Shown: positions 1,397 through 43,263 of the stretch, one piece after another
Layout: each line of letters begins with the position of its first letter
How positions within the stretch are numbered: the stretch's first letter is position 1
DNA from: a phage
Length of the DNA: 45,229 nucleotides
Sequence record: OZ346221.1
Direction: 5' to 3' (one strand)
Program-made: the position numbers and the translations under genes
The notes under the pieces: model-generated
The model's input: only the letters and a program-made list of their open reading frames with translations
Told to the model about the DNA's origin: nothing
Databases searched by the model: none

Positions 1397-2917
1397 ATGA
1401 CCGTTAACGTTGACAACCAGCACCCACTTTATGCGCGCATCGCGCCCGAGTGGAAGATGATCCGCGATTGTGTGGCAGGGGAGCGCGCCGTGAAGGCGTG
1501 CGGCCCCTTGTACCTGCCTCATCCCGCCAGTGGCGACAATACTGACCCGAAAGCACGGGCGCGGTATAAGGCGTACAAGCAACGCGCTGTATTCCTGAAC
1601 GCCACCGCCCGCACACTTAACGCGCTGTTAGGAGTTGCCTTTGCTAAACCGGTAAGTCTCGACCTTTCCGGGGCGATGGCTGACCTGATTGACGACGTAG
1701 ACGGCAGCGGAATGCCGCTGCCGCAACTCCTGCGCGGTGCTATGTCTGAAGTTCTGCAATCTGGCCGCGCAGGCTTTATGGTTGACTACGACCGCCAGGC
1801 GCATTTTGACGAACTGGGTAACGTAGTGCCGCAGACAGCCGCCGAGATGGCGTCACACCGCCCGCTTATCCGCCTATATACGGCAGAACAGATCATCAAC
1901 TGGCGGCAGACCCACGGCGTCGATACGCTGATTGTTCTGAAGGAAACGGACGAAATCAGCACCGAAGACCCGGACGACTTCGCAAACCACGAAGTAACAA
2001 TCTGGACCGAGCTTCGCATGATTAACGGTGCGGCACACGCCCGCCGCTGGTTTTATAATGCGGACACGTCCGAGGTGCAAATGGACTTGCCGCGGGGGTT
2101 TACCCGTACCGATCTTGTGCCGCTGGTGGATGCAGCCGGTAAGGCGCTGACACAACTCCCGTTTTGCTGGTGTGGTGCGGTGGACAACAACGCAACGCCG
2201 GACGCCGCGCCGCTGGCTGATATTGCGTCCATCAACATTAAGCACTACAACGCCGAAGCGGACGTCGCCGAGATTGCGCACATAGTGGGCCAACCAACCC
2301 TGGTTGCGACGGGCTTGACTCAATCATGGGCGGACAAAAACCTGAAAGGCGGCATCGCGCTCGGTGCGACTAAGGGCGTTATCCTGGGTCAGAACATGGA
2401 CGCCAAACTGCTTCAGGCCGAAGAACGAAACCTATCGGTCGCACTGTGTGAACGCCGAGAGCTGCAAATGGCTAAACTTGGCGCGGCCCTGGTCGAGAAG
2501 GGGACCGCACCTAAGACGGCAACCGAAGCGGCCTACGATGCGCAGACTGATAACAGTATCCTGTCACTGATTGCCGGTAACGTCGAGAAGGCTTTCAACC
2601 GTGCGCTGCAAATCGTCAAGCTGTTCACGGGCGACACCGCAGATCAACGCGTAACGCTGAATAAGTTCTACACCGAAATCACGGTTGACGCACAGCTTAT
2701 GACCGCAATGATGGCGGGTGTGCAGACCGGTACGGTCCGGCTGGCGGACTTTATCAAGTGGATGATGGCCCAGGGCGTCATTGATGACTCGCAAACCGTC
2801 GAGCAGGTGGAAGACGAACTGCGAAATCAGAATCCATTGCCTCAAATGTCCCCTGATGCGGTAGAATCCACCGAAGAAGACCCGGACAAGGTAGCGGACA
2901 ATGGCGAAGACAATTAA
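1397..2917 (+). CDS. portal protein
   Basis: 506-aa ORF immediately after terL, acidic C-terminus, RBS AAGGAAA upstream; position and size typical of a portal. Confidence 0.7.
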   Translation: MTVNVDNQHPLYARIAPEWKMIRDCVAGERAVKACGPLYLPHPASGDNTDPKARARYKAYKQRAVFLNATARTLNALLGVAFAKPVSLDLSGAMADLIDDVDGSGMPLPQLLRGAMSEVLQSGRAGFMVDYDRQAHFDELGNVVPQTAAEMASHRPLIRLYTAEQIINWRQTHGVDTLIVLKETDEISTEDPDDFANHEVTIWTELRMINGAAHARRWFYNADTSEVQMDLPRGFTRTDLVPLVDAAGKALTQLPFCWCGAVDNNATPDAAPLADIASINIKHYNAEADVAEIAHIVGQPTLVATGLTQSWADKNLKGGIALGATKGVILGQNMDAKLLQAEERNLSVALCERRELQMAKLGAALVEKGTAPKTATEAAYDAQTDNSILSLIAGNVEKAFNRALQIVKLFTGDTADQRVTLNKFYTEITVDAQLMTAMMAGVQTGTVRLADFIKWMMAQGVIDDSQTVEQVEDELRNQNPLPQMSPDAVESTEEDPDKVADNGEDN

Positions 2918-4004
2918 TCAATATATGGCGGATCGAATGATTCGCCGTCACATCTTCACCCAGCGCCTGAGCAATGATCAGGCGCGACGGGTGCTGGCTA
3001 TGTGGGAGAAGTTCCGGCCCGCTTTACTGGGTAAGTTGACCGAGTTACTTGATGGCAAAAAGTCCATGAGCAACAAGGCACTTACCACACTGTTAACCCG
3101 AATCGACAAGACCGTCAAAACGGAACTGCGCGCCGAGTTTAAAGTGCTGGCGGAGAGCCTTCAGGAGTTCGCCGACACCGAGGCTGATTATCTCTCGGAC
3201 ACACTAACGGCAGCGATCCAGCCCGCGGTCGCCATACCCGCGGTGGAGGTGGTGAGTGTAGTGACTGGCGCGCAGATCGCAGCGACTGCAATGAGAAACC
3301 CGTTCCAGGGTAACACCATGATGCAGTGGCCTGATTCACTTTCCGAGTGGACCAGGACGCAGATCGGTAATCAGGTGCGCGCCGGATTCATCCAGGGCAA
3401 GCCAACGATGGAAATTATTGCGGATGTGAGGCGCGCGCTAGGCGGTCGTAGTGCGCAAGCAATCTCAAGCGTTGTTAAGTCCGCGGTCAACCACTACGCG
3501 GCTACCGCCCGCGAATTAATGGTAAAAGCTAATGACGATATTCTCGAAGGTCGCCAATGGTTGGCTACATTGGACACTCATACTTCCCCAATGTGCCAGC
3601 TACGCGATCGCCTGTTTTATCCTGTTGACGTCACTCCCGACACCAAAGGAAAGCGCGGCGGGAAAGTGGTGGCTGGATCACAATATGGCGCTGGTCCGGG
3701 CAAGCTACATTATTGCTGCCGTTCGACGGAGACGTGGAAAGTTAAGGGCATGGAAGATTGGCCCAGTGGTAAGCGTCCGGCACTGAAGGCTGAAGCGGGC
3801 AGATTGCTGAGTGAGCAGGTCGACGCGCAGACTGATTTCTTCTCATGGGTGCAGCGCCAGCCGCGCCATATTCTGGAGGAATTATATGGAGTGCAGCGCG
3901 CAGACCAGATTATGCGAGGCGTGAGAGTGCCGAAGATGTTCACCGATTCTGGCGAACTGATGACTATCGCACAGCTTAAAAACCGGGGGTTATGGCGTGA
4001 TTAA
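2901..4004 (+). CDS. MuF-like minor head (head morphogenesis) protein
   Basis: 367 aa, follows portal; contains WLATLDTHTSPMCQLRDRLFYPV, resembling the conserved MuF/SPP1 gp7 motif. Confidence 0.65.
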   Translation: MAKTINQYMADRMIRRHIFTQRLSNDQARRVLAMWEKFRPALLGKLTELLDGKKSMSNKALTTLLTRIDKTVKTELRAEFKVLAESLQEFADTEADYLSDTLTAAIQPAVAIPAVEVVSVVTGAQIAATAMRNPFQGNTMMQWPDSLSEWTRTQIGNQVRAGFIQGKPTMEIIADVRRALGGRSAQAISSVVKSAVNHYAATARELMVKANDDILEGRQWLATLDTHTSPMCQLRDRLFYPVDVTPDTKGKRGGKVVAGSQYGAGPGKLHYCCRSTETWKVKGMEDWPSGKRPALKAEAGRLLSEQVDAQTDFFSWVQRQPRHILEELYGVQRADQIMRGVRVPKMFTDSGELMTIAQLKNRGLWRD

Positions 4005-4305
4005 ATACGCAGCGATTGGGCTGGTAATAGGCCTGGCGGTTGGATTCTGGCAGGGGGATTCCTACCGCGCAGGCGTTGAGGCGAGAGCGGCGCAAGAAGC
4101 GCAAGCGAAAGCCCAACGGCAGCAAACTAAGGTCGTCGAGGGGGCGGTGCAAGCAGAACAGACCCGCGATGTGGAATACCGGACTATCACGAAAGAGGTT
4201 GTAAAATATGTTACGCGTCCTAACCGTCCTGATTGCAGTTTTGATGATGAGCGCGTGCGGATCAAGCAACGTGCCATCGACGCCGCTAACCGAGTCGGTC
4301 TATAG
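3997..4305 (+). CDS. Rz-like inner-membrane spanin candidate
   Basis: GTG start; N-terminal TM helix MIKYAAIGLVIGLAVGFW followed by Ala/Gln/Glu-rich coiled-coil-like region; overlapped out of frame by a lipoprotein ORF. Confidence 0.5.
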   Translation: MIKYAAIGLVIGLAVGFWQGDSYRAGVEARAAQEAQAKAQRQQTKVVEGAVQAEQTRDVEYRTITKEVVKYVTRPNRPDCSFDDERVRIKQRAIDAANRVGL

Positions 4306-4438
4306 GCCACCTTGCACCTTTGAGAATGCCTCGGCAGATCCAGACGAAGATTTGCTGGTTGATGTTAAAAATATGGAGTGCGGTGCTAAGCTGAGGGCGC
4401 AGGTCCTGGAGTTGCAGCAAATAATTAAGGGGCCGTAA
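4208..4438 (+). CDS. Rz1-like outer-membrane lipoprotein spanin candidate
   Basis: Signal peptide with lipobox-like MSAC, Pro-containing mature region with extra Cys; RBS AAAGAGG upstream; starts inside and extends beyond the Rz-like ORF. Confidence 0.5.
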   Translation: MLRVLTVLIAVLMMSACGSSNVPSTPLTESVYRPPCTFENASADPDEDLLVDVKNMECGAKLRAQVLELQQIIKGP

Positions 4439-4450
4439 TGGCCCCTTTTT
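4429..4450. terminator. bidirectional intrinsic terminator between convergent genes
   Basis: GGGGCC-GTAAT-GGCCCC hairpin followed by TTTTT on + strand and flanked by A/T on the other; sits between + gene ending 4438 and - gene ending 4453 (approximate coordinates). Confidence 0.6.
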
Positions 4451-4452
4451 CG

Positions 4453-5217
4453 TTAGCGCGGAATACCGCAAATCTCGTTGAGAGTTTTCACATCCAGCGC
4501 CACCGCCGTGGACTTCGGCTTGTCCGGGTAAGGGATGAATTGCTCAACTTCAGGCCATGCCTTAATCAGCTTCTTGTCAGTATTGTGCAGGTCCAGAACA
4601 CCGGTAACGGTTAGTTTGAACGCATCATACTTCGCGCGCAACTCGCTACGGGCCTTGTCGTTGCGGTCCAAGCGTTTACAGAAGTCATGGTCTGCCGGGT
4701 AATCTACGCGACCGCGAGGGAGATATATCGGCAGCGCATTCCCGTCCTCGTCCACTTCACACACCGACGCGAGCATAACTGTCTCGAACCCCGGAACGAT
4801 ATCGCCGAGATCAGGCGCAAGCTTATTCATATATTTCTCTTCCCAGTATCCGCGATGTACGCGGTATTGGCGACCGTCACCGCTCAATGACAAGGTGCGA
4901 ACATTGCCGCCTGCGTTGATTTCAAAGGTGGCGTTATAGACGCTGCCGATACCCTTCGGGCGGTCGGAGTTATAACTATACGTCGCCTTGTTGGTGTATA
5001 CGCTGACGCCGTACATCTGCGACTGGTCGTCGCGGATTTCCTTGATATGCTCGCGGAGCGCTGCGAATGTGCGAATGCCGTCCGGCATACAGTCCAGCGT
5101 GATTGCGTACGCCAGATCGCGAGAGTCCATCATGATTTGTTTGGCTTCGGTTGCGATTTCGTGGTCGCGCAGGATGTTAGCCAGAATCTGGTTTTTAATG
5201 TCTTTCGTCAGTCTCAT
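4453..5217 (-). CDS. hypothetical protein, reverse-oriented accessory gene inside the head module
   Basis: 254 aa from internal ATG (MRLTKDIKNQ...) with RBS GAGGA; long N-terminal extension in the ORF track judged spurious; no recognisable motif. Confidence 0.6.
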   Translation of the reverse strand: MRLTKDIKNQILANILRDHEIATEAKQIMMDSRDLAYAITLDCMPDGIRTFAALREHIKEIRDDQSQMYGVSVYTNKATYSYNSDRPKGIGSVYNATFEINAGGNVRTLSLSGDGRQYRVHRGYWEEKYMNKLAPDLGDIVPGFETVMLASVCEVDEDGNALPIYLPRGRVDYPADHDFCKRLDRNDKARSELRAKYDAFKLTVTGVLDLHNTDKKLIKAWPEVEQFIPYPDKPKSTAVALDVKTLNEICGIPR

Positions 5218-5224
5218 TAGTGTG

Positions 5225-5262
5225 TCCTCGTTGTTGGTGTGCAACCAATATATGCAACCAAT
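5225..5262 (-). promoter_or_regulatory. sigma70-like promoter for the 4453..5217 gene, with tandem TGCAACCAAT motifs
   Basis: On the - strand: TTGCAA, 17-nt spacer, TATATT, then leader ATTGGTTGCACACCAAC...GAGGA; leader nearly identical to the one upstream of 40493 (approximate coordinates). Confidence 0.45.
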
Positions 5263-5365
5263 ATGAGGATTGCAAGCGAATTTTGCGATTATTTTTATCG
5301 CTGATAATATTAGAAGCGTGAAGTCGAGCGGGTGGCCTGCTCTGCCACAATCCCAGGGGGATAGC

Positions 5366-6070
5366 ATGAAACTTACTAAAGCAGAATATGACGCGTTGCC
5401 GGAAGGTATGAAGGCGCTTTTTGTTGCCGATGGCGACGGGTATAAATCAACGTTCATGACCGCAGAAGAAGTACAGGCGGAAATCAAGGGTCTGAAAGAC
5501 AATAACGCGAAGCTGGTGAGCGAGAAGAAAGCAGAAGCTGAACGCCGCGCCGAAGCCGAGCGACTTGCGAAAGAGAAAGAGGAAGCCGCCGCGCGAAAAA
5601 ATGGTGACCTCGAAGCGATCGACAAGTCCTGGAAAGATAAGTTTGCGAAACACGAAGCAGACACATCGGGAAAAATCGAAGCCTACCGCAAGCAGATCCA
5701 CGATCTAACCATCGGCAGCGCTGCCAAAGACCTGGCCTCGAAGCTGTTCGGTAAGAATGCTGGCATCATGCAACGCCACGTTATGGACCGCCTGACGCTG
5801 GAAGACGGCGAAGACGGCAGCTTGAAGGTGCGTGTCTTGCAGGATGGCAAACCATCCGCGCTGACTATGGAAGAGCTTGAAAAAGAGTTCCGTAATAACG
5901 CCGATTTTGCATCCGTCCTGGCTGGCACGCCAGCCGGTGGTGCGCCGAGCAAACCGACGCATGTTGTCGAAGATGTGAAGTCGAAAATCTCTATGGGCCA
6001 CAGCTTCGGTATCACCGATCTCACCAAACAGGCGGGGGATATCATCGCGAAGATGGGCGACGACGAGTAA
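5366..6070 (+). CDS. scaffolding protein candidate
   Basis: 235 aa from ATG with GGGGGA RBS; Ala/Glu/Lys-rich helical sequence; located directly upstream of the major capsid gene. Confidence 0.5.
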   Translation: MKLTKAEYDALPEGMKALFVADGDGYKSTFMTAEEVQAEIKGLKDNNAKLVSEKKAEAERRAEAERLAKEKEEAAARKNGDLEAIDKSWKDKFAKHEADTSGKIEAYRKQIHDLTIGSAAKDLASKLFGKNAGIMQRHVMDRLTLEDGEDGSLKVRVLQDGKPSALTMEELEKEFRNNADFASVLAGTPAGGAPSKPTHVVEDVKSKISMGHSFGITDLTKQAGDIIAKMGDDE

Positions 6071-10806: not shown

Positions 10807-10810
10807 TGCA

Positions 10811-10964
10811 GCGGGACAGATCGGGACGTCCCGTTTTGTCCCACCCCTGAAATGTGCATACCTATTCGAATTTATTGCATAAACTAAGCGGGACAGATCG
10901 GGACGTCCCGTTTTGTCCCACCCCTGAAATGTGCATACCTATTCGAATTTATTGCATAAACTAA
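10811..10964. repeat. 77-bp direct tandem repeat (2 units) containing the palindrome GGGACGTCCC
   Basis: Two adjacent near-identical units beginning GCGGGACAGATCGGGACGTCCCGTTTTGTCCC and ending TTATTGCATAAACTAA. Confidence 0.8.
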
Positions 10965-11121
10965 GCGGGACAAAAAGCGGGACAAACAAGGGGCGGGACA
11001 AAGCGGGACAGCACCCCGTCCCCACCAGTGCTGCCGCGGGGTTTAGCCGATCGGGACAGCGGGACAGCACCCCAGTCTTTCAGACTAGACGGGGGTCAGT
11101 GGCCCCCCTCGTCTGAGACTG
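10958..11121. repeat. iteron element copy A (six GCGGGACA-type direct repeats plus a GC-rich hairpin)
   Basis: CTAAGCGGGACAAAAAGCGGGACAAACAAGGGGCGGGACAAAGCGGGACAGCACC...CGGGACAGCGGGACAGCACCCCAG...GACGGGGGTCAGTGGCCCCCCTCGTC; flanks identical to the copy at 40113..40276. Confidence 0.75.
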
Positions 11122-21051: not shown

Positions 21052-21270
21052 TTATTCGCAGGTGGTGTTTTTGAAATGGTCTACCGACACGTACTGGAAG
21101 CTAAACGGATAACCCGCCCTTAGCATTTTATGCCCGGAGAAGTCTGCGACACCATACACAGGGACCGCATAATCAATGCCGCTATTCTGGTATGTGGCGT
21201 CGCAGACTTTAGCGGGCATGTTGGCACAACCGGACAAAAGAACCGCACAAATCATAATTAAAGTTTTCAT
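21052..21270 (-). CDS. small reverse-strand lipoprotein, candidate receptor-blocking superinfection-exclusion protein (Cor/Llp-like by context)
   Basis: 72 aa from internal ATG; signal peptide MKTLIMICAVLLSGC with lipobox LSGC; RBS AGGGGA; only - strand gene in the tail module, divergent from the tail-fibre gene. Confidence 0.55.
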   Translation of the reverse strand: MKTLIMICAVLLSGCANMPAKVCDATYQNSGIDYAVPVYGVADFSGHKMLRAGYPFSFQYVSVDHFKNTTCE

Positions 21271-21350
21271 GGTATCATCCCCTATATTTGGTTGAGTTTT
21301 AGTATTACACCGCTCAACCTGGATTGCAACCAATTTACGAGGATTTAGCT

Positions 21351-24022: not shown

Positions 24023-24085
24023 TATGTGGTCCTTTTTATGGGAGGCCGTATTGCCCCCCGACGCGTTAACTATAATGCAACCAAC

Positions 24086-24556
24086 CTATTGGTTGCAAGT
24101 GAATTTTGCAACGTTTATTGCGTAAATTTTCGGGACCAAATCGCCGCACGCCCGACGAATTGCCGCGATGTTCTTCTCGCAGTCCTCAATGATGACAAGT
24201 TCAGACACGTCTGCATAGCAGACCATTTTGAACACAGCGCACGCCTTAAACTCTGGCGGCGGGGTGTCGTCCAGCATGTGGCGCATAAACAACCGGCCTG
24301 CCGGGAATACCTCCAGTTGCTCGGCGGTAGTCTCCCAGCATTCTAGCTGCCGGTTGGTCAGATACGCGATCTCGAAGCCTTGCTCTTTGTACATGCGCAA
24401 CAGCGGCAGCATATCCATGTTCAGGTCTTCGCGTACATGCGCTTTGTGCCACTTTGCCCAAAAGGTTGATTTCGTTTTTATCCCCGGCACCAGGTCGGCA
24501 CGCGCATCGCTTGAACCATTAATAACGCCATCCAAATCGCAAATCAGTAATTTCAT
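24086..24556 (-). CDS. HAD-superfamily hydrolase-like protein
   Basis: 156 aa beginning MKLLICDLDGVI, matching HAD motif I (DxDGV). Confidence 0.55.
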   Translation of the reverse strand: MKLLICDLDGVINGSSDARADLVPGIKTKSTFWAKWHKAHVREDLNMDMLPLLRMYKEQGFEIAYLTNRQLECWETTAEQLEVFPAGRLFMRHMLDDTPPPEFKACAVFKMVCYADVSELVIIEDCEKNIAAIRRACGDLVPKIYAINVAKFTCNQ

Positions 24557-24777
24557 TTTAAGCTCTCAATAAGGGTGTATCGGGCGCTGCGCGCGGTGAA
24601 GGAGTTACACACGAAATGGCAACGCTGAGTCATGACAAGCCAGCCGGTAAGGTCCAGGCCCAGAAGGTATTCAGGCCGCGACACGCGACGCACACGATCG
24701 CGGCGTGGGTCGATGCAGAAGTCTTTTTGCATTTGGTCTACTACCGCGGGGTCGCGGTCAACGATTAAGATATTCAA
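24553..24777 (-). CDS. hypothetical small protein
   Basis: 74 aa ORF with ATGA overlap onto the HAD-like gene. Confidence 0.35.
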   Translation of the reverse strand: MNILIVDRDPAVVDQMQKDFCIDPRRDRVRRVSRPEYLLGLDLTGWLVMTQRCHFVCNSFTARSARYTLIESLK

Positions 24778-25974: not shown

Positions 25975-26012
25975 GACACCCTCAATATAATGCAACCAAT
26001 ATGGTTATGCAA
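25975..26012 (-). promoter_or_regulatory. sigma70-like promoter with TGCAACCAAT motifs, for the 25686..25937 gene
   Basis: On the - strand: TTGCAT, 17-nt spacer, TATATT, followed by a hairpin plus T-run in the leader (approximate coordinates). Confidence 0.35.
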
Positions 26013-26017
26013 CCAAT

Positions 26018-34721: not shown

Positions 34722-34972
34722 TATTTCGTCTCCCAGCGGTCAATCGTTCTTGCTTCGGATGCAACTGCAAAGCGAACATATTCCAGATTGGAGTCTGCCC
34801 AAATATAAAAGTCGGGATTAATAAAGGTGGTGCGCTTAATTTGCGCGGGAGTATTGCGGCGTTTATCTATTACGGCAACGCGTGACTGAAAATTGCCGAT
34901 GCGTTCGAATAGCCAATAATACGGGCGCTGGTCGCGGGAGTCCACCGCCTCGATTAGCGTGAAGCGTGCCAT
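34721..34972 (-). CDS. hypothetical protein
   Basis: 83 aa with GAGGA RBS. Confidence 0.45.
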   Translation of the reverse strand: MARFTLIEAVDSRDQRPYYWLFERIGNFQSRVAVIDKRRNTPAQIKRTTFINPDFYIWADSNLEYVRFAVASEARTIDRWETK

Positions 34973-34985
34973 TGTCTCGTCCTCT

Positions 34986-35012
34986 AAAAAGAGGCCCGCA
35001 GATTAGCGGGCC
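34986..35012 (-). terminator. intrinsic terminator/attenuator on the - strand after the first early gene
   Basis: GGCCCGC-TAATCT-GCGGGCC hairpin followed by a T-rich run on the - strand (approximate coordinates). Confidence 0.4.
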
Positions 35013-35020
35013 GGAATATA

Positions 35021-35527
35021 TTAATCTTCCAGTTCGAAATAGGTTTCGACGATTTCTTTTAACTCTGTGTGGAAGTCTTCGACGTCGTCATCTTCCAGCT
35101 TGGCGATTGATTTGATCTCGAACGACTCCAGCAGGTCGTCGAATTCGTCGTTCGCATCGTCGTCATCACCACCGGCGATAATCGCGGCATACTGTTTGAT
35201 TTCGTCGCGCATCTCCGCCAGCGGATCAGCATCTTTCTTACCTTTGCCGTTCGCCGGTGCTTTTTTAGCCTTAGCCGGTTTTTCGTCTTCGGCGTCTTCG
35301 TCGTCATCTTCTACGACTTCTTTTTTGGCCTTACCTTTCGCCGGTGCTTTTTTAGCTTTAGCCGGTTTTTCGTCTTCGGCGGCATCGTCGTCATCTTCTT
35401 TTTTGGCCTTAGACGGCTTCTTGTCTTCCTGCTTACCAACGGCAGCGCCAACAGTTTCATAATGCTTTGCGATGGTTTCCAGTGCTACTACGCCGCGAGT
35501 GATCAGGTTTACGATTTGCTCAAACAT
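35021..35527 (-). CDS. acidic low-complexity protein, first gene of the leftward early operon
   Basis: 168 aa from internal ATG (MFEQIVNL...) with GGAGAT RBS; two KPAKAKKAPA-type units and a strongly acidic C-terminal third. Confidence 0.5.
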   Translation of the reverse strand: MFEQIVNLITRGVVALETIAKHYETVGAAVGKQEDKKPSKAKKEDDDDAAEDEKPAKAKKAPAKGKAKKEVVEDDDEDAEDEKPAKAKKAPANGKGKKDADPLAEMRDEIKQYAAIIAGGDDDDANDEFDDLLESFEIKSIAKLEDDDVEDFHTELKEIVETYFELED

Positions 35528-35723
35528 GGTATATCTCCGATTGGTTAAGTTTAGGTGTCGGCAGTTAACTTCGTCGGTGGCCTTAACATATTGCCCGGTT
35601 GCGCGTTCTCCCGTTCGGGTAGTGGACCGGGTTATATAATCACGGTTGGGAATCCTGACACTTCGATCCGGCCCCTGCGTTGCCCCTCTCCAGTTTGCGT
35701 CCTGCATCCTGTCGACGGGGGGA

Positions 35724-35753
35724 ATAATAGATTGGTTGCAGGATAGGTGTCAA
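35724..35753 (-). promoter_or_regulatory. leftward early promoter candidate
   Basis: On the - strand: TTGACA, 18-nt spacer containing TGCAACCAAT, TATTAT; about 190-nt leader to the 35527 start (approximate coordinates). Confidence 0.45.
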
Positions 35754-35761
35754 CAACTAAT

Positions 35762-35820
35762 TTAAAAAAAAAGCGCCGAGGCAAAATGCAACGGCGCTAA
35801 CCAATAAGAGACAATGAGAC
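35762..35820 (-). ncRNA. candidate ~58-nt small RNA
   Basis: Bounded by a promoter-like element (35827-35855) and a 7-bp GC stem plus U9 terminator; no ORF; predicted RNA GUCUCAUUGUCUCUUAUUGGUUAGCGCCGUUGCAUUUUGCCUCGGCGCUUUUUUUUU. Confidence 0.3.
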
Positions 35821-35826
35821 GGGAGT

Positions 35827-35855
35827 ATTATTACACGCGTGCGCGCCCGTTTCAA
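35827..35855 (-). promoter_or_regulatory. promoter candidate for the small RNA
   Basis: On the - strand: TTGAAA, 17-nt spacer, extended -10 TGTAATAAT (approximate coordinates). Confidence 0.35.
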
Positions 35856-35868
35856 TATTCCAAAGGAG

Positions 35869-35897
35869 TTGACACCCCGCGGTTTTAGGTGTAGTTT
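35869..35897 (+). promoter_or_regulatory. rightward early promoter candidate
   Basis: TTGACA, 17-nt spacer, TAGTTT, then GGAG RBS before the 35929 ATG; inverted GGTGTCAAC / GTTGACACC copies flank the hub (approximate coordinates). Confidence 0.45.
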
Positions 35898-35928
35898 CGT
35901 TGGTCATTAACCAACCGGAGACAGAAAA

Positions 35929-36258
35929 ATGAATATTGACGACGCAATCGAAATGTTAACTAAGACTGTTTGCAGTGAGACAAGCCGGTCCTGGGCATAT
36001 ACCGATGCCGTGGGTGCGGTGCTATTTGAGATCGAACGTCTGCGACTTACCGAAAAAGAATTGCGCGCGAAGCTGGAATTACTCAACGGTACGGCAGCAA
36101 GCAAGCTGCAAAAGCACAATGAGGAAATGGAAGAATACAAAAAACAGGTTATCCGTTTGCGCGATGAGGGGAAGTCATGGGCAATGATCGCGGAGTTGAC
36201 AGGAATTAACCAAAGCACCGTGCGCTCTTGGGTACGCAATAACAAAACTTCGAAGTAA
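35929..36258 (+). CDS. HTH DNA-binding protein, putative early regulator
   Basis: 109 aa; coiled-coil middle and C-terminal helix-turn-helix-like GKSWAMIAELTGINQSTVRSWV. Confidence 0.5.
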   Translation: MNIDDAIEMLTKTVCSETSRSWAYTDAVGAVLFEIERLRLTEKELRAKLELLNGTAASKLQKHNEEMEEYKKQVIRLRDEGKSWAMIAELTGINQSTVRSWVRNNKTSK

Positions 36259-36268
36259 GGCAACGGCA

Positions 36269-38533
36269 ATGAGCTTAATTAAATTCGCTGTAACAAGACC
36301 CGCTAAAAAAGGCGAAAAAGCCAGGGCGGAAAACTTCCAGATGACAACTGATGAATTTTTCGAATTTATCAATGATGCGAAAGAAATATCATCAGTGCAT
36401 ATCAACAAGACCGAGGATAAAGCCGAGTATGCGCGCCGCAAGCGCAAGGCCGATGGCATCGTGGCATATACCAGTGACGGCCTACGCCGTAAGACCAGCG
36501 CGGTGGACCGCTCGATCCTGTTCTTTGATATCGACCGTACCGACACTCGCACCTTGCGCCGCTGCCGTAAGGCTTTCATCGATGCGGGGCTGGAGCACGT
36601 ATTCCATACAACAACCGGCGACCGCCACCCGCTGAAAGGCGGCACGCGTTGCGCACGTTTCCTTGTGCTCACAGACAAGCCCGTACCGGCGGAAGACCTG
36701 GGCCGCGTCCAGTACGCGCTGTTAGACCAACTGGGCCTGTCTGATGTGGACTTCGACGATTGCACCAAAGACACAAACCGCCTGATGTACCTACCACACC
36801 AGCAGTCTGTCATTAAGTGCCACTACGGAAAGCGCGCCAGTGTGCGTCGTCTGCTTCGCCGGGCTGACAGGCTGGGAGTGGAGAAAGAGGAAGTACGCCG
36901 CGAGCTTACCCAGGGCGACGACGCAGTGGCTGACGGCATTCTGGACTGGTGCTTCCAAGCAGGATTCGAGGAGTTATCCTCCGGTCGCGGTTATGAAGTG
37001 CCGTGCCCGAACGAACATCTGCACAGCGGCGAAGGGTCGACGGCTATTATAGTCAAGGATGGCGAGATCCGTTTCAAGTGTATGCACACCGGCAACGAGT
37101 GTTGCTCTGAGCTGAACAGACACCAGCACCTGGCGCTACGTCTTATCGGGATACCGGACCACCTGAACGTCGAGCCGCACAACATGTCACGTAAGCAAAT
37201 CGCCGCCATCCTCCCAGGGCTGGACGACGAGGAAGTCGAATCCTTATATGAACATATTGTTGATGCGGTTGGCGACGGCGAAGAATACGGCGTGTGCACC
37301 GATGCGGATCTGGATAACGAGCCGGTTGCGCTGTTCAGTAAGCACGACCCGATTATCGAGGGGTTGATTAACTTTAAATCGACCTGGTACATGGCGGGTG
37401 AGTCGAATATCGGTAAGTCTTTCTACGTGCTGGGCCAGATGGGCGCGGTTGCCGCGGGTATTCCGTTTGGTGGCGCGAAGGTCGTCCAGTCTCATTGCTT
37501 CTATTTCGACGCGGAAGGTGGCGAAGCCTCCAACCAGCGTAAAGAAGCATTGCAGATTAAATATGAGCACGACCTGGACAAGCTGCACATTATCGATCTG
37601 CAGTCACGCGGCTGGGATATCACCAGCAAATCGGGCTTGCGCGAAGTTATCAGCTTTATCAACCGCACCGCTAACGGCGAACCGGTTGGCCTGGTGGCGT
37701 TCGACTCACTAAACCAGACTGTTGCGTTGCGGTCCGCCGAGGCTAAACCGTTCGACGAGAACAACGCCAGCGATATGGGTGAAGTGGTCAAAGCGCTGAA
37801 GGCCATCGCGGAAAATACAGGTGGCAGTGCGGGCGTCATCCACCACCCGGCTAAAGGTGCAAACGGCAGCAGAACGCCACGCGGGTCCGGCGCGCTGCAT
37901 GGTGCTGTCGATTCTGCGTTCTTCCTGGAACAGCCGGACGACAACCAGCCCGGACAATTGAACCTGTATCACGAAAAGTCACGTAACGGCATCAAGCAAG
38001 CGCCGCGCGGCTTCGTCCTGCTCAAGTGCAAGGTGAAGGTGGATCTCCGCAAGTCAGAAGCGTTCGAGGCGCACCAGTCCACCAGCACCGGGCCAGACTT
38101 CGGCGACGTGGTTGCCGGATGGGACGTCAAGCCGATTGCCTCCACGCCACGCGACGAGACTCTCTACCTCGTACCGGTTGCCCTGGCACCGTTCGCTATT
38201 GAACAGGCGAAGGCGGCGGGCAAGGCCGCGGTTAAGGAAGAGAACACCGCCGGACCGCGCAACGAAAAAGAGAAAGTGCTTTATGCGGCACTGGAAAAAC
38301 TGATGGAAGATAACCCGTACCATACTGGATTCAGTAAATCGGCAATTGTCCGCCAGGCGGGACTCGCAAAAGGTGGCACTTCGACGAAGGCAATCGACGA
38401 TATGGTGGAGCGCGGGGTAATAGGTTTTTATACAGATCCGCACACCGGGGCCATCTATGGGTCTTCTAATTTGGTCATCAAATCGGATATCCCTATCACG
38501 CTTTCCGCGACCGATGACGATTTAAAAGATTAA
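36269..38533 (+). CDS. primase-helicase (zinc-binding primase-type N-terminal region, RecA-like ATPase, C-terminal winged-helix-like domain)
   Basis: 754 aa; Cys/His cluster CPNEHLHSGEG...CMHTGNECC; Walker A MAGESNIGKS; VAFDSLNQ; C-terminal GFSKSAIVRQAGL...AIDDMVERGVIGF. Confidence 0.75.
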   Translation: MSLIKFAVTRPAKKGEKARAENFQMTTDEFFEFINDAKEISSVHINKTEDKAEYARRKRKADGIVAYTSDGLRRKTSAVDRSILFFDIDRTDTRTLRRCRKAFIDAGLEHVFHTTTGDRHPLKGGTRCARFLVLTDKPVPAEDLGRVQYALLDQLGLSDVDFDDCTKDTNRLMYLPHQQSVIKCHYGKRASVRRLLRRADRLGVEKEEVRRELTQGDDAVADGILDWCFQAGFEELSSGRGYEVPCPNEHLHSGEGSTAIIVKDGEIRFKCMHTGNECCSELNRHQHLALRLIGIPDHLNVEPHNMSRKQIAAILPGLDDEEVESLYEHIVDAVGDGEEYGVCTDADLDNEPVALFSKHDPIIEGLINFKSTWYMAGESNIGKSFYVLGQMGAVAAGIPFGGAKVVQSHCFYFDAEGGEASNQRKEALQIKYEHDLDKLHIIDLQSRGWDITSKSGLREVISFINRTANGEPVGLVAFDSLNQTVALRSAEAKPFDENNASDMGEVVKALKAIAENTGGSAGVIHHPAKGANGSRTPRGSGALHGAVDSAFFLEQPDDNQPGQLNLYHEKSRNGIKQAPRGFVLLKCKVKVDLRKSEAFEAHQSTSTGPDFGDVVAGWDVKPIASTPRDETLYLVPVALAPFAIEQAKAAGKAAVKEENTAGPRNEKEKVLYAALEKLMEDNPYHTGFSKSAIVRQAGLAKGGTSTKAIDDMVERGVIGFYTDPHTGAIYGSSNLVIKSDIPITLSATDDDLKD

Positions 38534-38708
38534 ATTCTGCGCGCATTGGTTGCCGATATGGTAATTCCCATATCGGTGAATGATTAAATTTTGCGCGCAT
38601 TGGTTGCCATTTTGAGTGTTTTTACCTGGTCGTATTGGTTGCCGTGTAGTGTAAATATAGTGAATAGTTATGCAATAAAACTGCATAAAGTAAGCGGACA
38701 GAAAGCAC
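37229..38708 (+). repeat. tandem duplication unit, copy 1 (3' half of primase-helicase gene plus downstream non-coding DNA)
   Basis: Near-identical to 38709..40188 with scattered substitutions; unit about 1480 bp; junction next to GTAAGCGGACAGAAAGC (approximate coordinates). Confidence 0.8.
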
Positions 38709-40188
38709 GAGGAAGTCGAATCCTTATATGAACATATTGTTGATGCGGTTGGCGACGGCGAAGAATACGGCGTGTGCACCGATGCGGATCTGGATAACGA
38801 GCCGGTTGCGCTGTTCAGTAAGCACGACCCGATCATCGAGGGGTTGATTAACTTTAAATCGACCTGGTACATGGCGGGTGAGTCGAACATCGGTAAATCG
38901 TTCTACGTGCTGGGGCAGATGGGTGCGGTTGCCGCGGGTATCCCGTTTGGCGGTGCGAAGGTCGTCCAGTCCCATTGCTTCTATTTCGACGCGGAAGGTG
39001 GCGAAGCCTCCAACCAGCGTAAGGAAGCATTGCAGATCAAATACGAGCACGACCTGGACAAGCTGCACATTATTGACCTGCAATCACGCGGCTGGGATAT
39101 CACCAGCAAGTCGGGCTTGCGCGAAGTTATCAGCTTTATCAACCGCACCGCTAACGGCGAACCGGTTGGCCTGGTGGCGTTCGACTCACTCAACCAGACT
39201 GTTGCGCTGCGGTCCGCCGATGCTAAACCGTTCGACGAGAACAACGCCAGCGATATGGGCGAAGTGGTCAAGGCGCTGAAGGCCATTGCGGAAAATACAG
39301 GCGGCAGTGCGGGCGTCATCCACCACCCGGCTAAAGGTGCAAACGGCAGCAGAACGCCTCGCGGGTCCGGCGCGCTTCATGGTGCTGTCGATTCCGCGTT
39401 CTTCCTGGAACAACCGGACGACAACCAGCCCGGACAATTGAACCTGTATCACGAAAAGGCGCGTAACGGCATCAAGCAAGCGCCGCGCGGATTCGTCCTG
39501 CTTAAGTGCAAAGTTAAGGTAGATCTCCGCAAGTCCGAAGCGTTCGAAGCCCACCAGTCCACCAGCGCCGGGCCAGACTTCGGCGATGTGGTTGCCGGTT
39601 GGGACGTCAAGCCGATCGCATCCACGCCACGCGACGAGACTCTTTACCTCGTACCGGTCGCCCTGGCACCGTTCGCCATCGAACAGGCGAAGGCCGCTGG
39701 CAAAGCCGCAGTTAAGGAAGAAAACGCCGCCGTACCGCGCAACGAAAAAGAGAAAGTGCTTTATGCGGCACTGGAAAAACTGATGGAAGATAACCCGGAC
39801 CATACCGGATTCAGTAAATCGGCAATTGTCCGCCAGGCTGGGCTTGCGAAAGGTGGCACATCGACGAAGGCAATCGACGATATGGTCGAGCGCGGCGTGC
39901 TCGGTTTTTATACCGATCCGCACACCGGGGCCATCTACGGGTCGTCGAATATTGTCATTAAAACGAGTATACCCATCACGCTTTCTGCGACCGATGATGA
40001 TTTAAAAGATTAAATGTTGCGCGCATTGGTTGCCATTTCGAGTGTTTTTAGCTGGTCGCATTGGTTGCCGTGTAGTGTAAATATATTGAATAGTTATGCA
40101 ATAAAACTGCATAAACTAAGCGGGACAAAAAGCGGGACAAACAAGGGGCGGGACAAAGCGGGACAGCACCCCGTCCCGCCCCCGGATG
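38709..40188 (+). repeat. tandem duplication unit, copy 2
   Basis: Second copy of the 3' half of the primase-helicase gene, followed by the complete iteron element (approximate coordinates). Confidence 0.8.
38772..40013 (+). CDS. stand-alone paralogue of the primase-helicase C-terminal half (ATPase plus winged-helix-like domain)
   Basis: 413-aa ORF with GTG start and no obvious RBS; about ten amino-acid differences from the parent, most nucleotide differences synonymous; may be an untranslated remnant. Confidence 0.45.
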   Translation: MCTDADLDNEPVALFSKHDPIIEGLINFKSTWYMAGESNIGKSFYVLGQMGAVAAGIPFGGAKVVQSHCFYFDAEGGEASNQRKEALQIKYEHDLDKLHIIDLQSRGWDITSKSGLREVISFINRTANGEPVGLVAFDSLNQTVALRSADAKPFDENNASDMGEVVKALKAIAENTGGSAGVIHHPAKGANGSRTPRGSGALHGAVDSAFFLEQPDDNQPGQLNLYHEKARNGIKQAPRGFVLLKCKVKVDLRKSEAFEAHQSTSAGPDFGDVVAGWDVKPIASTPRDETLYLVPVALAPFAIEQAKAAGKAAVKEENAAVPRNEKEKVLYAALEKLMEDNPDHTGFSKSAIVRQAGLAKGGTSTKAIDDMVERGVLGFYTDPHTGAIYGSSNIVIKTSIPITLSATDDDLKD

Positions 40189-40276
40189 ACGCGGCCTGGC
40201 GGGGAGCGGGACAGCGGGACAGCACCCCAGTCTTTCAGACTAGACGGGGGTCAGTGGCCCCCCTCGTCTGAGACTG
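40113..40276. repeat. iteron element copy B (candidate replication origin)
   Basis: Six GCGGGACA-type repeats plus the same GC-rich hairpin as copy A; directly downstream of the primase-helicase region; followed by an AT-rich stretch with TGCGGNTTG repeats. Confidence 0.75.
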
Positions 40277-40435
40277 CATAAAATCCTGGATTGCAAAATA
40301 CACGGCAGCATGTTGCGGATTGCGGTCGTCGCGGAACTAGGCAACCAATGCGGGTTGTATTATGTTGAGTGAAAAATGCGGTTTGCAGTCTCAGCAGATA
40401 GCGATCAACTTTTTCATGCGCGTGATTAATATTGG

Positions 40436-40464
40436 TTGCATCCGGCCTGGCACCTTGCTATATT
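40436..40464 (+). promoter_or_regulatory. sigma70-like promoter with ATTGGTTGCA motifs, for the 40493 gene
   Basis: TTGCAT, 17-nt spacer, TATATT, then leader GGTTGCACACCAACATGAGGA before the ATG (approximate coordinates). Confidence 0.45.
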
Positions 40465-40492
40465 GGTTGCACACCAACATGAGGACTGAACA

Positions 40493-40798
40493 ATGAAAGC
40501 AATTATCTGGAATTACACCCTGGCCGTGGCAAAGCTGGAAGAAGCGAAAGCACTGAACGGCAACGTAGACCAGGCGCTGCAGATTGCGGTACTGGCGCAC
40601 CAATCAATTCGTGACGCGCTCTACCGCATGGACGCCAGCCTGGATGACCTGAAGCCGTTGCGTATGGCAATTCACGAATATGCCAAGGCATTTGCCCGTG
40701 AGCGCCTGGCGTATCGCTTCGGGATCGGTGAGACGGCAGTGACAAACGTCGCCCGGATTAAAGCCCAGCGCGAACTATTCGCCCAGCTTGCGAAATAA
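40493..40798 (+). CDS. hypothetical protein
   Basis: 101 aa with GAGGA RBS and the conserved promoter/leader element upstream. Confidence 0.5.
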   Translation: MKAIIWNYTLAVAKLEEAKALNGNVDQALQIAVLAHQSIRDALYRMDASLDDLKPLRMAIHEYAKAFARERLAYRFGIGETAVTNVARIKAQRELFAQLAK

Positions 40799-43203: not shown

Positions 43204-43233
43204 TTGACTTGCAACCAACATAGACGCCATACT
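43204..43233 (+). promoter_or_regulatory. promoter candidate with TGCAACCAA motif in the spacer
   Basis: TTGACT, 18-nt spacer beginning TGCAACCAAC, CATACT, then AAGAGGAG RBS (approximate coordinates). Confidence 0.4.
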
Positions 43234-43263
43234 GCGACCAATCAACAAGAGGAGTATTACACT

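What the first reader, a model, noticed from the sequence alone, without database searches (positions are those of the whole stretch)
4453..5217. Independently transcribed reverse-strand gene of unknown function inside the head module
A 254-aa ORF lies on the opposite strand between the head morphogenesis/spanin genes and the scaffold gene. It has its own promoter (TTGCAA, 17 nt, TATATT) and shares an intrinsic terminator with the convergent gene. Its promoter and leader are nearly identical to those of the unrelated gene at 40493, implying co-regulation. I recognise no catalytic or structural motif. Its position and autonomous expression are typical of morons (host-interaction, exclusion or anti-defence cargo).
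Basis: partly seen in the sequence, partly recalled or inferred. Interest (0 to 1): 0.55.

Follow-up and report, generated by a model that had tools for sequence, protein, structure and literature searches.

The report
Known phage gene nmad5, early-type unit
The reverse-strand gene inside the head genes is the Dhillonvirus copy of nmad5, a widespread phage gene of still unknown biochemistry. It is a dispensable, self-promoted accessory gene that sits in different early operons in related phages, and it is not a head protein.

Summary
A 254-aa ORF lies at 4453-5217 (-), with a TTGCAA-17-TATATT promoter, a GAGGA ribosome-binding site and a hairpin terminator shared with the convergent o-spanin gene. 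It also shares an exact 21-nt promoter/leader block with the gene at 40493.

The gene is not unrecognisable. It is a full-length member of Pfam Nmad5 (E 2e-61), and the window is a complete Dhillonvirus genome (94% nt identity to SECphi18, whose gp24 is annotated the same way). Published work shows that Dhillonvirus nmad5 can be deleted and appears toxic when cloned. A K216E change, at a residue this window keeps, lets the phage escape the Tmn defence, whereas deletion does not.

New here:
- In related phages with the same backbone, nmad5 sits in the replication operon or after the primase-helicase. In eiAU the two head genes are adjacent, so the gene has moved.
- Its promoter carries a motif (ATTGGTTGCA) found at 20 sites, mostly between non-structural genes.
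- A confident AlphaFold model matches no solved fold.
- The family lacks an obvious catalytic residue set.
- The gene evolves several times faster than its neighbours but under purifying selection.

"Moron" is partly right: it is an autonomous, dispensable, inserted unit, but it is near-universal in the genus and not compositionally foreign. Function remains unknown. A binding, host-interaction role is my favoured inference.

The parts
4453..5217 (-). nmad5 coding sequence (254 aa plus stop), Pfam Nmad5 family
   Evidence: ORF. Pfam PF18757 E 2.1e-61, full length. phrog_1965 E 5.7e-63. 93.7% identical to SECphi18 gp24, annotated 'Nucleotide modification associated protein'.
5225..5229 (-). Ribosome-binding site GAGGA, 7 nt before the ATG
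   Evidence: Read directly from the sequence. The context AACAACGAGGA is also present before nmad5 in EP23, YD-2008.s, LM40P1 and eiAU gp32.
5247..5275 (-). Sigma-70-type promoter: TTGCAA, 17-nt spacer, TATATT
   Evidence: Conserved in SECphi18, EP23, YD-2008.s and LM40P1. Not tested experimentally.
5232..5252 (-). 21-nt block from the -10 element into the leader (TATATTGGTTGCACACCAACA), identical to 40459-40479 (+)
   Evidence: Exact repeat found. 20 of the 21 nt are invariant in 7 aligned promoters from 5 phages.
5240..5262 (-). Two direct copies of the motif ATTGGTTGCA (5253-5262 in the spacer, 5240-5249 across the -10 element and start site)
   Evidence: 20 sites with at most 1 mismatch, 3.5 expected, 0 of 100 shuffles reach 20. 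Site contexts.
4427..4447 (.). Bidirectional hairpin terminator shared by o-spanin (+) and nmad5 (-)
   Evidence: terminator-like on both strands.: -17.3 and -15.9 kcal/mol, z -2.6 and -2.8.
40436..40479 (+). Paralogous promoter (TTGCAT, 17-nt spacer, TATATT) plus the same 21-nt block, upstream of the unrelated 101-aa gene at 40493-40798
   Evidence: No Pfam family for the 101-aa product. In eiAU-183 the nmad5 homolog gp32, with its own promoter-like site, sits in a similar position downstream of the helicase-primase.
34973..35023 (-). 'Empty site' in the replication operon, where C130_2-like relatives (L002, L005) carry nmad5
   Evidence: tblastn: the genes flanking nmad5 in L002/L005 match window 35024-35134 and 34724-34972. 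DUF2800, SSB, PolA and SNF2 follow in the same order.
3997..4438 (+). i-spanin and o-spanin genes. Together with nmad5 they fill the gap between head-morphogenesis and scaffold genes, which are adjacent in eiAU-183

Best explanation
The ORF is the Dhillonvirus ortholog of nmad5 (Pfam PF18757). It is a dispensable accessory gene that belongs functionally with the early and DNA-metabolism genes, not with the head genes.

Shown:
- It is a full-length Nmad5 family member.
- It forms its own transcription unit by sequence criteria: a conserved sigma-70-type promoter, a ribosome-binding site and a shared hairpin terminator.
- Its promoter carries the ATTGGTTGCA motif, which occurs mainly in the gaps between non-structural genes. 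It also shares an exact 21-nt block (-10 element plus leader) with the promoter of the gene at 40493.
- In phages with the same backbone, nmad5 lies elsewhere. In L002/L005 it is in the replication operon. In eiAU it lies after the helicase-primase, a position similar to that of gene 40493. eiAU has nothing between its head-morphogenesis and scaffold genes.

Inferred:
- The promoter-leader-nmad5 cassette moved into the head module in the Dhillonvirus lineage, possibly by recombination at the repeated promoter motif.
- It is transcribed by host RNA polymerase together with the early/middle genes, against the direction of late transcription. The hairpin stops both convergent transcripts.

Inferred mechanism (weakest step): Nmad5 acts by binding a partner rather than by catalysis.
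- The partner would be a host factor, or a phage DNA-metabolism factor that host immunity monitors.
- The family-conserved residues are the N-terminal RLTxxI...NA segment and the C-terminal T213-xx-K216-L-xxx-W-P-E motif. They may lie close together in the model: residues 2 and 213 are its two isolated beta-bridge residues, though that they pair with each other is my guess.
- The strictly conserved but less confidently modelled C-terminal tail (TLNxxCGxP) may also contribute.
- K216 lies inside the C-terminal conserved motif. The published K216E substitution gives Tmn escape while deletion does not. This fits an altered-specificity or gain-of-function binding change rather than loss of an enzyme.
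For: Identity: Pfam E 2e-61; 94% nt identity to SECphi18 and the same annotation there.

Transcription unit.

Motif regulon: 20 sites against 3.5 expected. By my reading, most sites fall in the gaps between mapped genes, and the structural modules hold sites only at the nmad5 and cor promoters. A palindromic pair lies at 24076-24097.

Relocation:
- In L002/L005, nmad5 lies between homologs of window 35024-35527 and 34724-34972, with DUF2800, SSB, PolA and SNF2 in the same order.
- eiAU-183 gp32 is Nmad5 (Pfam E 2e-68) and lies after the helicase-primase with its own TTGCAC-17-TATAGT site.
- eiAU head-morphogenesis and scaffold genes are adjacent.

Other family contexts:
- Lambdoid phages mEp235 and SH2026Stx1: the left early operon, directly after N/Nun and before cIII-kil-recombination genes.
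- Thymidine-hypermodification clusters in SN1, MW2 and L016.

Non-enzymatic reading:
- Across 143 diverse members, the conserved polar positions are R2, T4, K8, N212, T213, E223, T237 and N247. None is His, Cys or Asp.
- AlphaFold model: pLDDT 89.6, pTM 0.82.
- BFVD returns only other Nmad5 proteins.
- No PDB, PADLOC or NCBIfam sequence hit.

Host-interplay reading:
- Literature: deletion is viable and still Tmn-sensitive, K216E/K296E escapes Tmn, cloning is apparently toxic (PMC11846954).
- K216 is present in this window and invariant in 34 genus representatives. Family-wide the position is K, Q or R.
- dN is 5-8 times that of the scaffold gene, with dN/dS 0.07-0.17.
- Protein identity is 63% against 89-96% for flanking head proteins in LM40P1, and 22-27% against 46-66% for the replication proteins in L002/L005.
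- Within the genus, variation concentrates in residues 51-90 and 115-125, while both termini are almost invariant.
Against: - No transcript data exist. Promoter timing and any factor binding the motif are inferred, and the promoter scan alone is at chance level.
- In motif-bearing promoters the TTGCA of the motif often is the -35 hexamer. The motif may therefore reflect promoter ancestry rather than a shared regulator.
- The conserved polar residues (R2, T4, K8, T213, K216, E223, N247) could equally form a small catalytic or nucleotide-binding site. An orphan fold does not exclude an enzyme.
- In many phages the gene is tightly syntenic with 5-hmU kinase and thymidylate-synthase-like genes, which is the origin of its name.
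- The direction of relocation is not rooted by a phylogeny.
- The toxicity reported on cloning used a construct whose extent I cannot check.
- Tmn escape by K216E could be indirect.
Confidence: 0.55

Rival explanations
1. Nmad5 is an accessory factor of the phage's own DNA replication, recombination or nucleotide metabolism (for example a replisome or annealing-protein partner). It would have no direct host target, and Tmn would sense a downstream consequence of its action.
For: In every context examined it sits beside DUF2800 nuclease, Gp2.5/Enc34-type SSB, PolA, Bet/Rad52 recombination genes or thymidylate-synthase-like genes. EP23 carries a weakly beta-clamp-like gene directly upstream (Pfam E 7e-4, below the cutoff). 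The C-terminal third of the protein is basic (pI 9.0).
Against: It is dispensable for plaque formation (PMC11846954). It evolves much faster than the replication proteins beside it. Its position varies while the replication genes stay fixed. No DNA-binding or known replisome fold was detected.
Confidence: 0.25
2. Nmad5 is a DNA or nucleotide modification enzyme, or an essential cofactor of one, as the family name and the published paper assume. Tmn would sense the modified DNA.
For: The family was named for its position inside thymidine-hypermodification clusters, between 5-hmU DNA kinase and a thymidylate-synthase-like gene. The window also encodes Dam-like and C5 methyltransferases, a HAD phosphatase and DUF6378. 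A small set of polar residues is conserved across the family.
Against: - No hypermodification genes flank it in Dhillonvirus, eiAU, C130_2-like or lambdoid phages.
- The in-vitro work on the M6 pathway used gp51-gp55, and the paper's text does not mention gp56/ORF056, the M6 Nmad5 homolog found (PMC8989533).
- There is no similarity to any solved transferase, kinase or other enzyme fold.
- Dhillonviruses are described as more restriction-sensitive than the 7-deazaguanine-modified Queuovirinae (PMC8594841).
- Deletion of nmad5 does not change Tmn sensitivity, which is hard to reconcile with Tmn sensing an Nmad5-made modification.
Confidence: 0.12
3. It is a classical moron: recently acquired foreign cargo, variably present, that benefits the host or excludes other phages.
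For: It has its own promoter and terminator and is inserted between genes that are adjacent in eiAU. It is dispensable. The locus is an insertion hotspot in relatives. The same genome has a similarly organised reverse-strand cor gene.
Against: It is present in about 150 of roughly 159 genus-level records. Its G+C matches the flanks. Homologs exist in the sister genus and in more distant syntenic relatives, so it is old backbone-associated content that moved within the genome. I saw no integrase among the SECphi18 annotations mapped onto the window, so prophage expression looks unlikely.
Confidence: 0.06
4. It is a head assembly or structural protein, encoded on the other strand by accident of genome history.
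For: Only its location between the head-morphogenesis and scaffold genes.
Against: It has opposite orientation with its own promoter. Homologs lie in early or replication modules elsewhere, and eiAU has nothing at this position. The deletion mutant is viable. No fold similarity to capsid, scaffold or protease proteins was found.
Confidence: 0.02

Closest known systems
Dhillonvirus nmad5 (PhiSMA8 CDS7, PhiSMS22 CDS6; SECphi18 gp24, YP_010844185)
   Same: Orthologous gene at the same locus and in the same orientation, 254 aa, 84-98% identical. The window keeps wild-type K216, the residue whose K-to-E change gives Tmn escape.
   Different: Nothing substantive. The published 'K296' of PhiSMS22 equals K216. 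The 80-residue offset matches an in-frame ATG 80 codons upstream in this window (5457), so I infer that the PhiSMS22 annotation starts there, across the promoter and antisense to the scaffold start. The conserved family N-terminus supports the 254-aa form.
Nmad5 proteins of thymidine-hypermodifying phages (Pseudomonas M6 ORF056, Sphaerotilus SN1_019, Bordetella MW2 gp16)
   Same: Same Pfam family (E 1e-51 to 1e-72 for the homologs tested). They share the N-terminal RLT...NA and C-terminal TxxKLxxxWPE...LNxxxGLP motifs.
   Different: They are about 190-210 aa and lack most of the central segment of the 254-aa Dhillonvirus form. They are embedded in 5-hmU kinase / aGPT-Pplase / thymidylate-synthase clusters, which are absent from the window. 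Only about 35-40% identical over the last 85 residues.
Nmad5 homolog of lambdoid phages (mEp235_037; Stx-phage gene after N)
   Same: Same family (Pfam E 3.7e-72). An early gene in a region known for accessory and anti-restriction functions, next to recombination genes.
   Different: It is part of the N-antiterminated left early operon rather than a stand-alone promoter-terminator unit. These are temperate phages.
Classical phage morons (lambda bor/lom, HK97-type morons); cor in this same genome
   Same: A promoter-gene-terminator unit inserted between genes that are adjacent in a relative, dispensable, and transcribed independently of the surrounding late operon.
   Different: It is near-universal in the genus, has no compositional anomaly, and is an old gene of the same phage lineage that changed position. 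The phage appears to be non-temperate.

Membership tests
Pfam PF18757 Nmad5 | Full-length match to the family HMM above the gathering score (27 bits) | tested here: met
   208.1 bits, E 2.1e-61, residues 1-253 on profile positions 1-206 of 206.
Pfam PF18757 Nmad5 | Family signature residues: N-terminal R-L-T..I...I..N-A; G104; C-terminal T-xx-[KQR]-L-xxx-W-P-E, P229, L-N247, G-L/I-P | tested here: met
   All are present in the window protein. Conservation measured over 143 diverse members.
Pfam PF18757 Nmad5 | Association with nucleotide or base modification genes (the basis of the name) | tested here: not met
   No 5-hmU kinase, aGPT-Pplase or thymidylate-synthase-like gene is in the window. 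Neighbours are spanin and scaffold genes. This is a contextual trait, not a sequence criterion, so family membership stands.
Moron (independent transcription unit inserted into a phage operon) | Own promoter and own terminator | tested here: met
   Met at the sequence level only: a conserved sigma-70-type promoter and a hairpin terminator. No transcript data.
Moron (independent transcription unit inserted into a phage operon) | Lies between two genes that are adjacent in a related phage | tested here: met
   In eiAU-183, head morphogenesis (35465-36592) and scaffold (36679-37347) are adjacent. Homology to the window genes is 57% and 51%.
Moron (independent transcription unit inserted into a phage operon) | Presence/absence polymorphism among close relatives | tested here: not met
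   nmad5 is in about 150 records at 60% protein identity or more, against about 159 with the adjacent scaffold/capsid genes.
Moron (independent transcription unit inserted into a phage operon) | Nucleotide composition distinct from the flanks | tested here: not met
   G+C is 0.52-0.555 across the gene and 0.53-0.58 in the flanks. Only the promoter gap is AT-rich.
Moron (independent transcription unit inserted into a phage operon) | Dispensable for lytic growth | not testable with these tools
   Literature: PhiSMS22 delta-nmad5 was rebooted and plated (PMC11846954).
DNA base-modification enzyme | Recognisable catalytic fold or conserved catalytic residue set | tested here: not met
DNA base-modification enzyme | Modified base in virion DNA that depends on the gene | not testable with these tools
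   Indirect evidence only. Dhillonviruses are described as more RM-sensitive than Queuovirinae (PMC8594841). Work on the M6 pathway used gp51-55.
Head structural / assembly protein | Co-oriented and co-transcribed with the head genes; homologs in head modules of relatives | tested here: not met
   It has opposite strand and its own promoter. Homologs lie in early or replication modules.
Phage anti-defence protein | Direct inhibition of a defence system by the protein | not testable with these tools
   Only circumstantial: K216E gives Tmn escape while deletion does not; fast evolution; no PADLOC hit, as expected for a phage protein.

The most novel reading that the evidence does not exclude
Nmad5 is misnamed. 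It would not be a nucleotide-modification protein but a widespread family (531 clusters at 50% identity) of early phage binding proteins that neutralise or decoy host immune or DNA-surveillance factors. Specificity could be retargeted by a single substitution in the conserved TxxKLxxxWPE motif, as K216E creates anti-Tmn activity. The gene would travel as a promoter-leader-gene cassette between early operons by recombination at a shared promoter/operator motif (ATTGGTTGCA).
Probability: 0.25. Interest if true: 0.6.

Novelty: already known. Interest (0 to 1): 0.3.

Why it matters
Nmad5 is a large phage protein family with no known biochemistry, and it is routinely annotated as a DNA-modification protein. 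The one functional study, on Tmn escape, interpreted its results through that annotation.

The comparative evidence here argues for caution about that label:
- The gene changes position among backbone-syntenic phages.
- It occurs in phages without hypermodification genes.
- Its fold matches no solved structure.
- No obvious catalytic residue set is conserved.
- Variation is concentrated away from the conserved terminal motifs that contain K216.

This points experiments towards binding partners rather than DNA chemistry. For phage-therapy engineering, this phage carries wild-type K216. If it lacks an effective anti-Tmn gene, which I did not check, it should be Tmn-sensitive.

For genome annotation, the case shows that a reverse-strand gene in a head module can be a displaced early gene that kept its early-type promoter.

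Tried and rejected
- Profile searches of PDB sequences: only noise, best E 0.037 to a designed protein.
- PADLOC and NCBIfam: no hits.
- Foldseek against AFDB50 was unavailable. BFVD returned only other Nmad5 proteins.
- Rfam over 4000-5600: only a chance-level hit (E 0.77).
- I checked whether this gene is a known SECphi18 defence trigger. It is not. Ksap1 (the KpAvs2 trigger) is the 74-aa gene at window 24556-24777, RAZR senses the portal, and Retron-Eco8 and Borvo escapers map to SSB and the polymerase.
- The longer 403-aa and 334-aa reading frames were rejected as over-extensions across the promoter.
- The third word-indexed protein search added almost no new homologs.
- Literature searches for Dhillonvirus transcription data and for the original Nmad definitions found nothing usable.
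- The weak beta-clamp similarity of the EP23 cargo gene is below the Pfam cutoff and carries no weight.
Full report
**What the window is.** The 45,229-nt window is a complete genome of an Escherichia siphophage of the genus Dhillonvirus. The region 4000-5700 is 94% identical to phage SECphi18 and matches 155 phage records. SECphi18 proteins map collinearly onto the whole window, from the large terminase at position 1 to the small terminase at the end.

**Checking the observation.**
- The ORF is at 4453-5217 on the minus strand (ATG 5217, TAA 4455-4453, 254 aa).
- The mechanical ORF runs on to 403 aa. The 254-aa start has GAGGA 7 nt upstream. The N-terminus MRLTKDIK is conserved even in homologs of 25-30% identity.
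- The promoter TTGCAA-17-TATATT lies at 5275-5247. One such site in 1.8 kb is what shuffles give (1.4 expected), so the scan alone proves nothing.
- The promoter core is nevertheless invariant in SECphi18, EP23, YD-2008.s and LM40P1. LM40P1's Nmad5 protein is only 63% identical.
- The hairpin at 4427-4447 overlaps the o-spanin stop and lies 5 nt past the nmad5 stop. It folds at -17.3 kcal/mol (+) and -15.9 kcal/mol (-), z about -2.6 to -2.8. The U-tract is weaker on the nmad5 side.
- The block TATATTGGTTGCACACCAACA occurs exactly twice, at 5252-5232 (-) and 40459-40479 (+). The second copy lies upstream of the unrelated 101-aa gene at 40493, and similar ribosome-binding sites follow both. It is the only repeat of 20 nt or more involving this locus.

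**Identity.**
- The protein is not featureless. It matches Pfam PF18757 (Nmad5, 'nucleotide modification associated domain 5') over its full length at E 2.1e-61, and phrog_1965 at E 5.7e-63.
- The SECphi18 ortholog gp24 is annotated 'Nucleotide modification associated protein' in RefSeq.
- An exhaustive profile search finds 531 family clusters at 50% identity. The 150 listed hits are all short proteins of at most about 250 aa, most of them 170-250 aa.

**What is published.** Yamashita et al. 2025 (PMC11846954) isolated Dhillonvirus mutants that escape the Tmn defence system.
- The causal change is a single substitution in nmad5: K216E in PhiSMA8 and K296E in PhiSMS22, at the equivalent position.
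- Reverting the mutation restores sensitivity, and introducing it confers escape.
- Deleting nmad5 gives viable phage that is still blocked by Tmn.
- Attempts to clone nmad5 failed, apparently because of toxicity.
- The authors read Nmad5 as a DNA modification enzyme on the strength of the family name.
- The window protein keeps K216. The residue is invariant in 34 genus representatives and is K, Q or R across the family.
- The 80-residue offset between the two published numberings equals the distance to an in-frame ATG 80 codons upstream in this window (5457). That start would lie across the promoter and antisense to the scaffold start. I infer an annotation difference rather than a real N-terminal truncation.
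- Other SECphi18 defence triggers in the literature are different genes.

**Where the gene lives in relatives.** This is the main new result.
- Two metagenomic phage contigs (L002, L005) have a replication module collinear with the window: DUF2800 nuclease, Enc34/Gp2.5-type SSB, PolA and SNF2, at 46-66% protein identity.
- In them, nmad5 lies at the head of that operon, between homologs of window genes 35024-35527 and 34724-34972. In the window these two genes are separated by only 51 bp.
- The syntenic Eiauvirus eiAU-183 carries its Nmad5 (gp32, Pfam E 2.2e-68) downstream of the helicase-primase. It has its own TTGCAC-17-TATAGT site and an AACAACGAGGA ribosome-binding context like the window's.
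- That position resembles the position of the window's 40493 gene, the one that shares the 21-nt promoter/leader block.
- In eiAU-183 the head-morphogenesis and scaffold genes are adjacent, with an 86-bp gap.
- The backbone is therefore fixed and nmad5 moves. In Dhillonvirus it landed in the head module and kept, or brought along, an early-type promoter.
- Further afield, the family sits directly after N/Nun in the left early operon of lambdoid phages. It forms a small divergently oriented unit in Vibrio phage VchM-138. It lies between 5-hmU DNA kinase and a thymidylate-synthase-like gene in hypermodifying phages.
- Only this last context justifies the family name.

**The promoter motif.**
- ATTGGTTGCA occurs 20 times with at most one mismatch, against 3.5 expected; no shuffle reaches 20.
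- By my reading, most sites lie in the gaps between genes of the replication and early operons, upstream of cor, and at the nmad5 promoter. The long structural operons hold sites only at the two reverse-strand units.
- Its TTGCA often supplies the -35 hexamer. Copies also overlap the -10 element and start site (at nmad5 and at 40493). One pair forms a palindrome at 24076-24097, and one pair is inverted relative to the downstream gene (43210-43242).
- This looks more like an operator than a mere -35 element. A variant of the motif is also abundant in eiAU-183, including at its head-morphogenesis/scaffold junction.
- An early HTH protein with sigma-70 region-4 similarity (35929-36255) is a candidate binder. 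That is speculation.

**The locus as an insertion hotspot.**
- EP23 and YD-2008.s carry unrelated extra genes (170 aa and 109 aa). They are inserted exactly between the conserved promoter/leader and the nmad5 ribosome-binding site.
- These genes, not nmad5, are the variable cargo. nmad5 itself is present in about 150 of roughly 159 genus-level records.
- Its G+C content is like that of its flanks.

**Evolutionary rate.**
- Pairwise dN/dS is 0.07-0.17, so this is a functional protein under purifying selection. The scaffold gene gives 0.01-0.05, and nmad5 dN is 5-8 times higher.
- In LM40P1, Nmad5 is 63% identical while scaffold, capsid and head-morphogenesis proteins are 89-96%.
- Within the genus, variation concentrates in residues 51-90 and 115-125. 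Residues 1-20 and 180-254 are almost invariant.

**Structure.**
- With a 143-sequence alignment, AlphaFold2 gives pLDDT 89.6 and pTM 0.82.
- The model has three N-terminal helices, a central beta-sheet region that includes a poorly modelled loop (residues 119-121 below pLDDT 50), a long helix (178-209) and two short helices carrying the TxxKLxxxWPE motif. The strongly conserved C-terminal tail is less confidently placed.
- Residues 2 and 213 are the model's two isolated beta-bridge residues. They may pair with each other, which would bring the conserved termini together, but I could not check this in the coordinates.
- Conserved polar positions across the family are R2, T4, K8, N212, T213, E223, T237 and N247. 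This is not a recognisable catalytic set, although a small active or ligand-binding site cannot be excluded.

**Interpretation.**
- Firmly established: this is the known Dhillonvirus nmad5 gene. It is an autonomous, dispensable accessory unit displaced from the early/DNA-metabolism part of the genome into the head module. It is not a head protein.
- Favoured mechanism (inference, about 0.35-0.4 on its own): Nmad5 is a binding protein acting at the interface between phage DNA metabolism and host surveillance. The conserved terminal motifs form its working surface.
- K216E would then be an altered-specificity allele, which explains why the substitution escapes Tmn while deletion does not.
- Rivals are a purely phage-internal replication/recombination accessory role, a modification enzyme or cofactor, a classical recently acquired moron, and a head protein. 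They are weighed in the rival section.
- Evidence against the modification reading:
  - Modification genes are absent next to it in four phage groups.
  - The M6 pathway work used gp51-55 only.
  - Dhillonviruses are relatively restriction-sensitive.
  - The deletion phenotype does not fit.

**Verdict.** The gene is already known and annotated, and its biochemical function is still open. Interest is modest. The useful additions are the relocation history, the motif-bearing promoter family, and structural and conservation evidence that the 'DNA modification enzyme' label rests on context found in only one group of phages.

Noticed in passing
window 37226-38553 and 38706-40033 (ORF 38772-40013): A diverged tandem duplication: 1328 bp at 93.8% identity with no gaps. 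It copies the 3' part of the primase-helicase gene and its downstream motif-rich promoter region, and creates a second 413-aa ORF. The best-matching relatives map this 2-kb stretch onto about 1.65 kb, so they lack the duplication. It could be a real partial duplication or a chimeric assembly of two strains.
   Followed up: partly
window, 20 sites, e.g. 21325, 24076-24097, 25991-26017, 35731, 38545-38643, 40025-40069, 40431-40471, 43210-43242: The motif ATTGGTTGCA is about 6-fold over-represented and appears mostly confined to intergenic or promoter regions of non-structural genes. One pair is palindromic. A variant (GTTGGTTGCA) is equally abundant in Eiauvirus eiAU-183. This looks like a genus-spanning promoter/operator element whose binding factor is unknown.
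   Followed up: partly
L009 (EP23) 1599-2111 and L011 (YD-2008.s) 1558-1887: Relatives carry unrelated extra genes (170 aa and 109 aa) inserted precisely between the conserved promoter/leader and nmad5. The 170-aa gene has weak, sub-threshold beta-clamp similarity. The reverse-strand islet is therefore a cargo insertion hotspot.
   Followed up: partly
window 24556-24777 (-): Homolog (85% identity) of SECphi18 gp51, the 74-aa gene between methyltransferase and phosphatase genes that I take to be Ksap1. Ksap1 directly binds and activates the Klebsiella Avs2 immune sensor (PMC11564622).
   Followed up: no
window 1397-2917 (+): Portal protein, 99% identical to SECphi18 gp21, the published trigger of the RAZR ring-activated RNase defence (PMC13017515). 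RefSeq labels gp21 'minor tail protein'.
   Followed up: no
window 21055-21270 (-), promoter near 21325: A second reverse-strand unit inside the structural region: a Cor-like superinfection-exclusion gene with its own ATTGGTTGCA-containing promoter. It is organised like the nmad5 unit.
   Followed up: no
window 10954-11121 and 40109-40276; also 10810-10972: Two exact repeat stretches, together about 140 nt, link a small gene in the tail module (gp37-like) with the gp06-like ORF downstream of the primase-helicase. There is also a short tandem repeat at 10810-10972.
   Followed up: no
window 5457 (in-frame ATG 80 codons upstream of the nmad5 start): The 80-residue offset between the published K296 (PhiSMS22) and K216 (PhiSMA8) equals the distance to this upstream ATG. 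The PhiSMS22 annotation probably starts there, which would run across the promoter and antisense to the scaffold start. The 'N-terminal truncation' of PhiSMA8 Nmad5 described in PMC11846954 is then most likely an annotation difference.
   Followed up: yes
window 40362-40496 (+): The 44-aa ORF annotated as gp07 in SECphi18 spans the promoter and motif copies of the 40493 gene. It is probably not a real gene.
   Followed up: no
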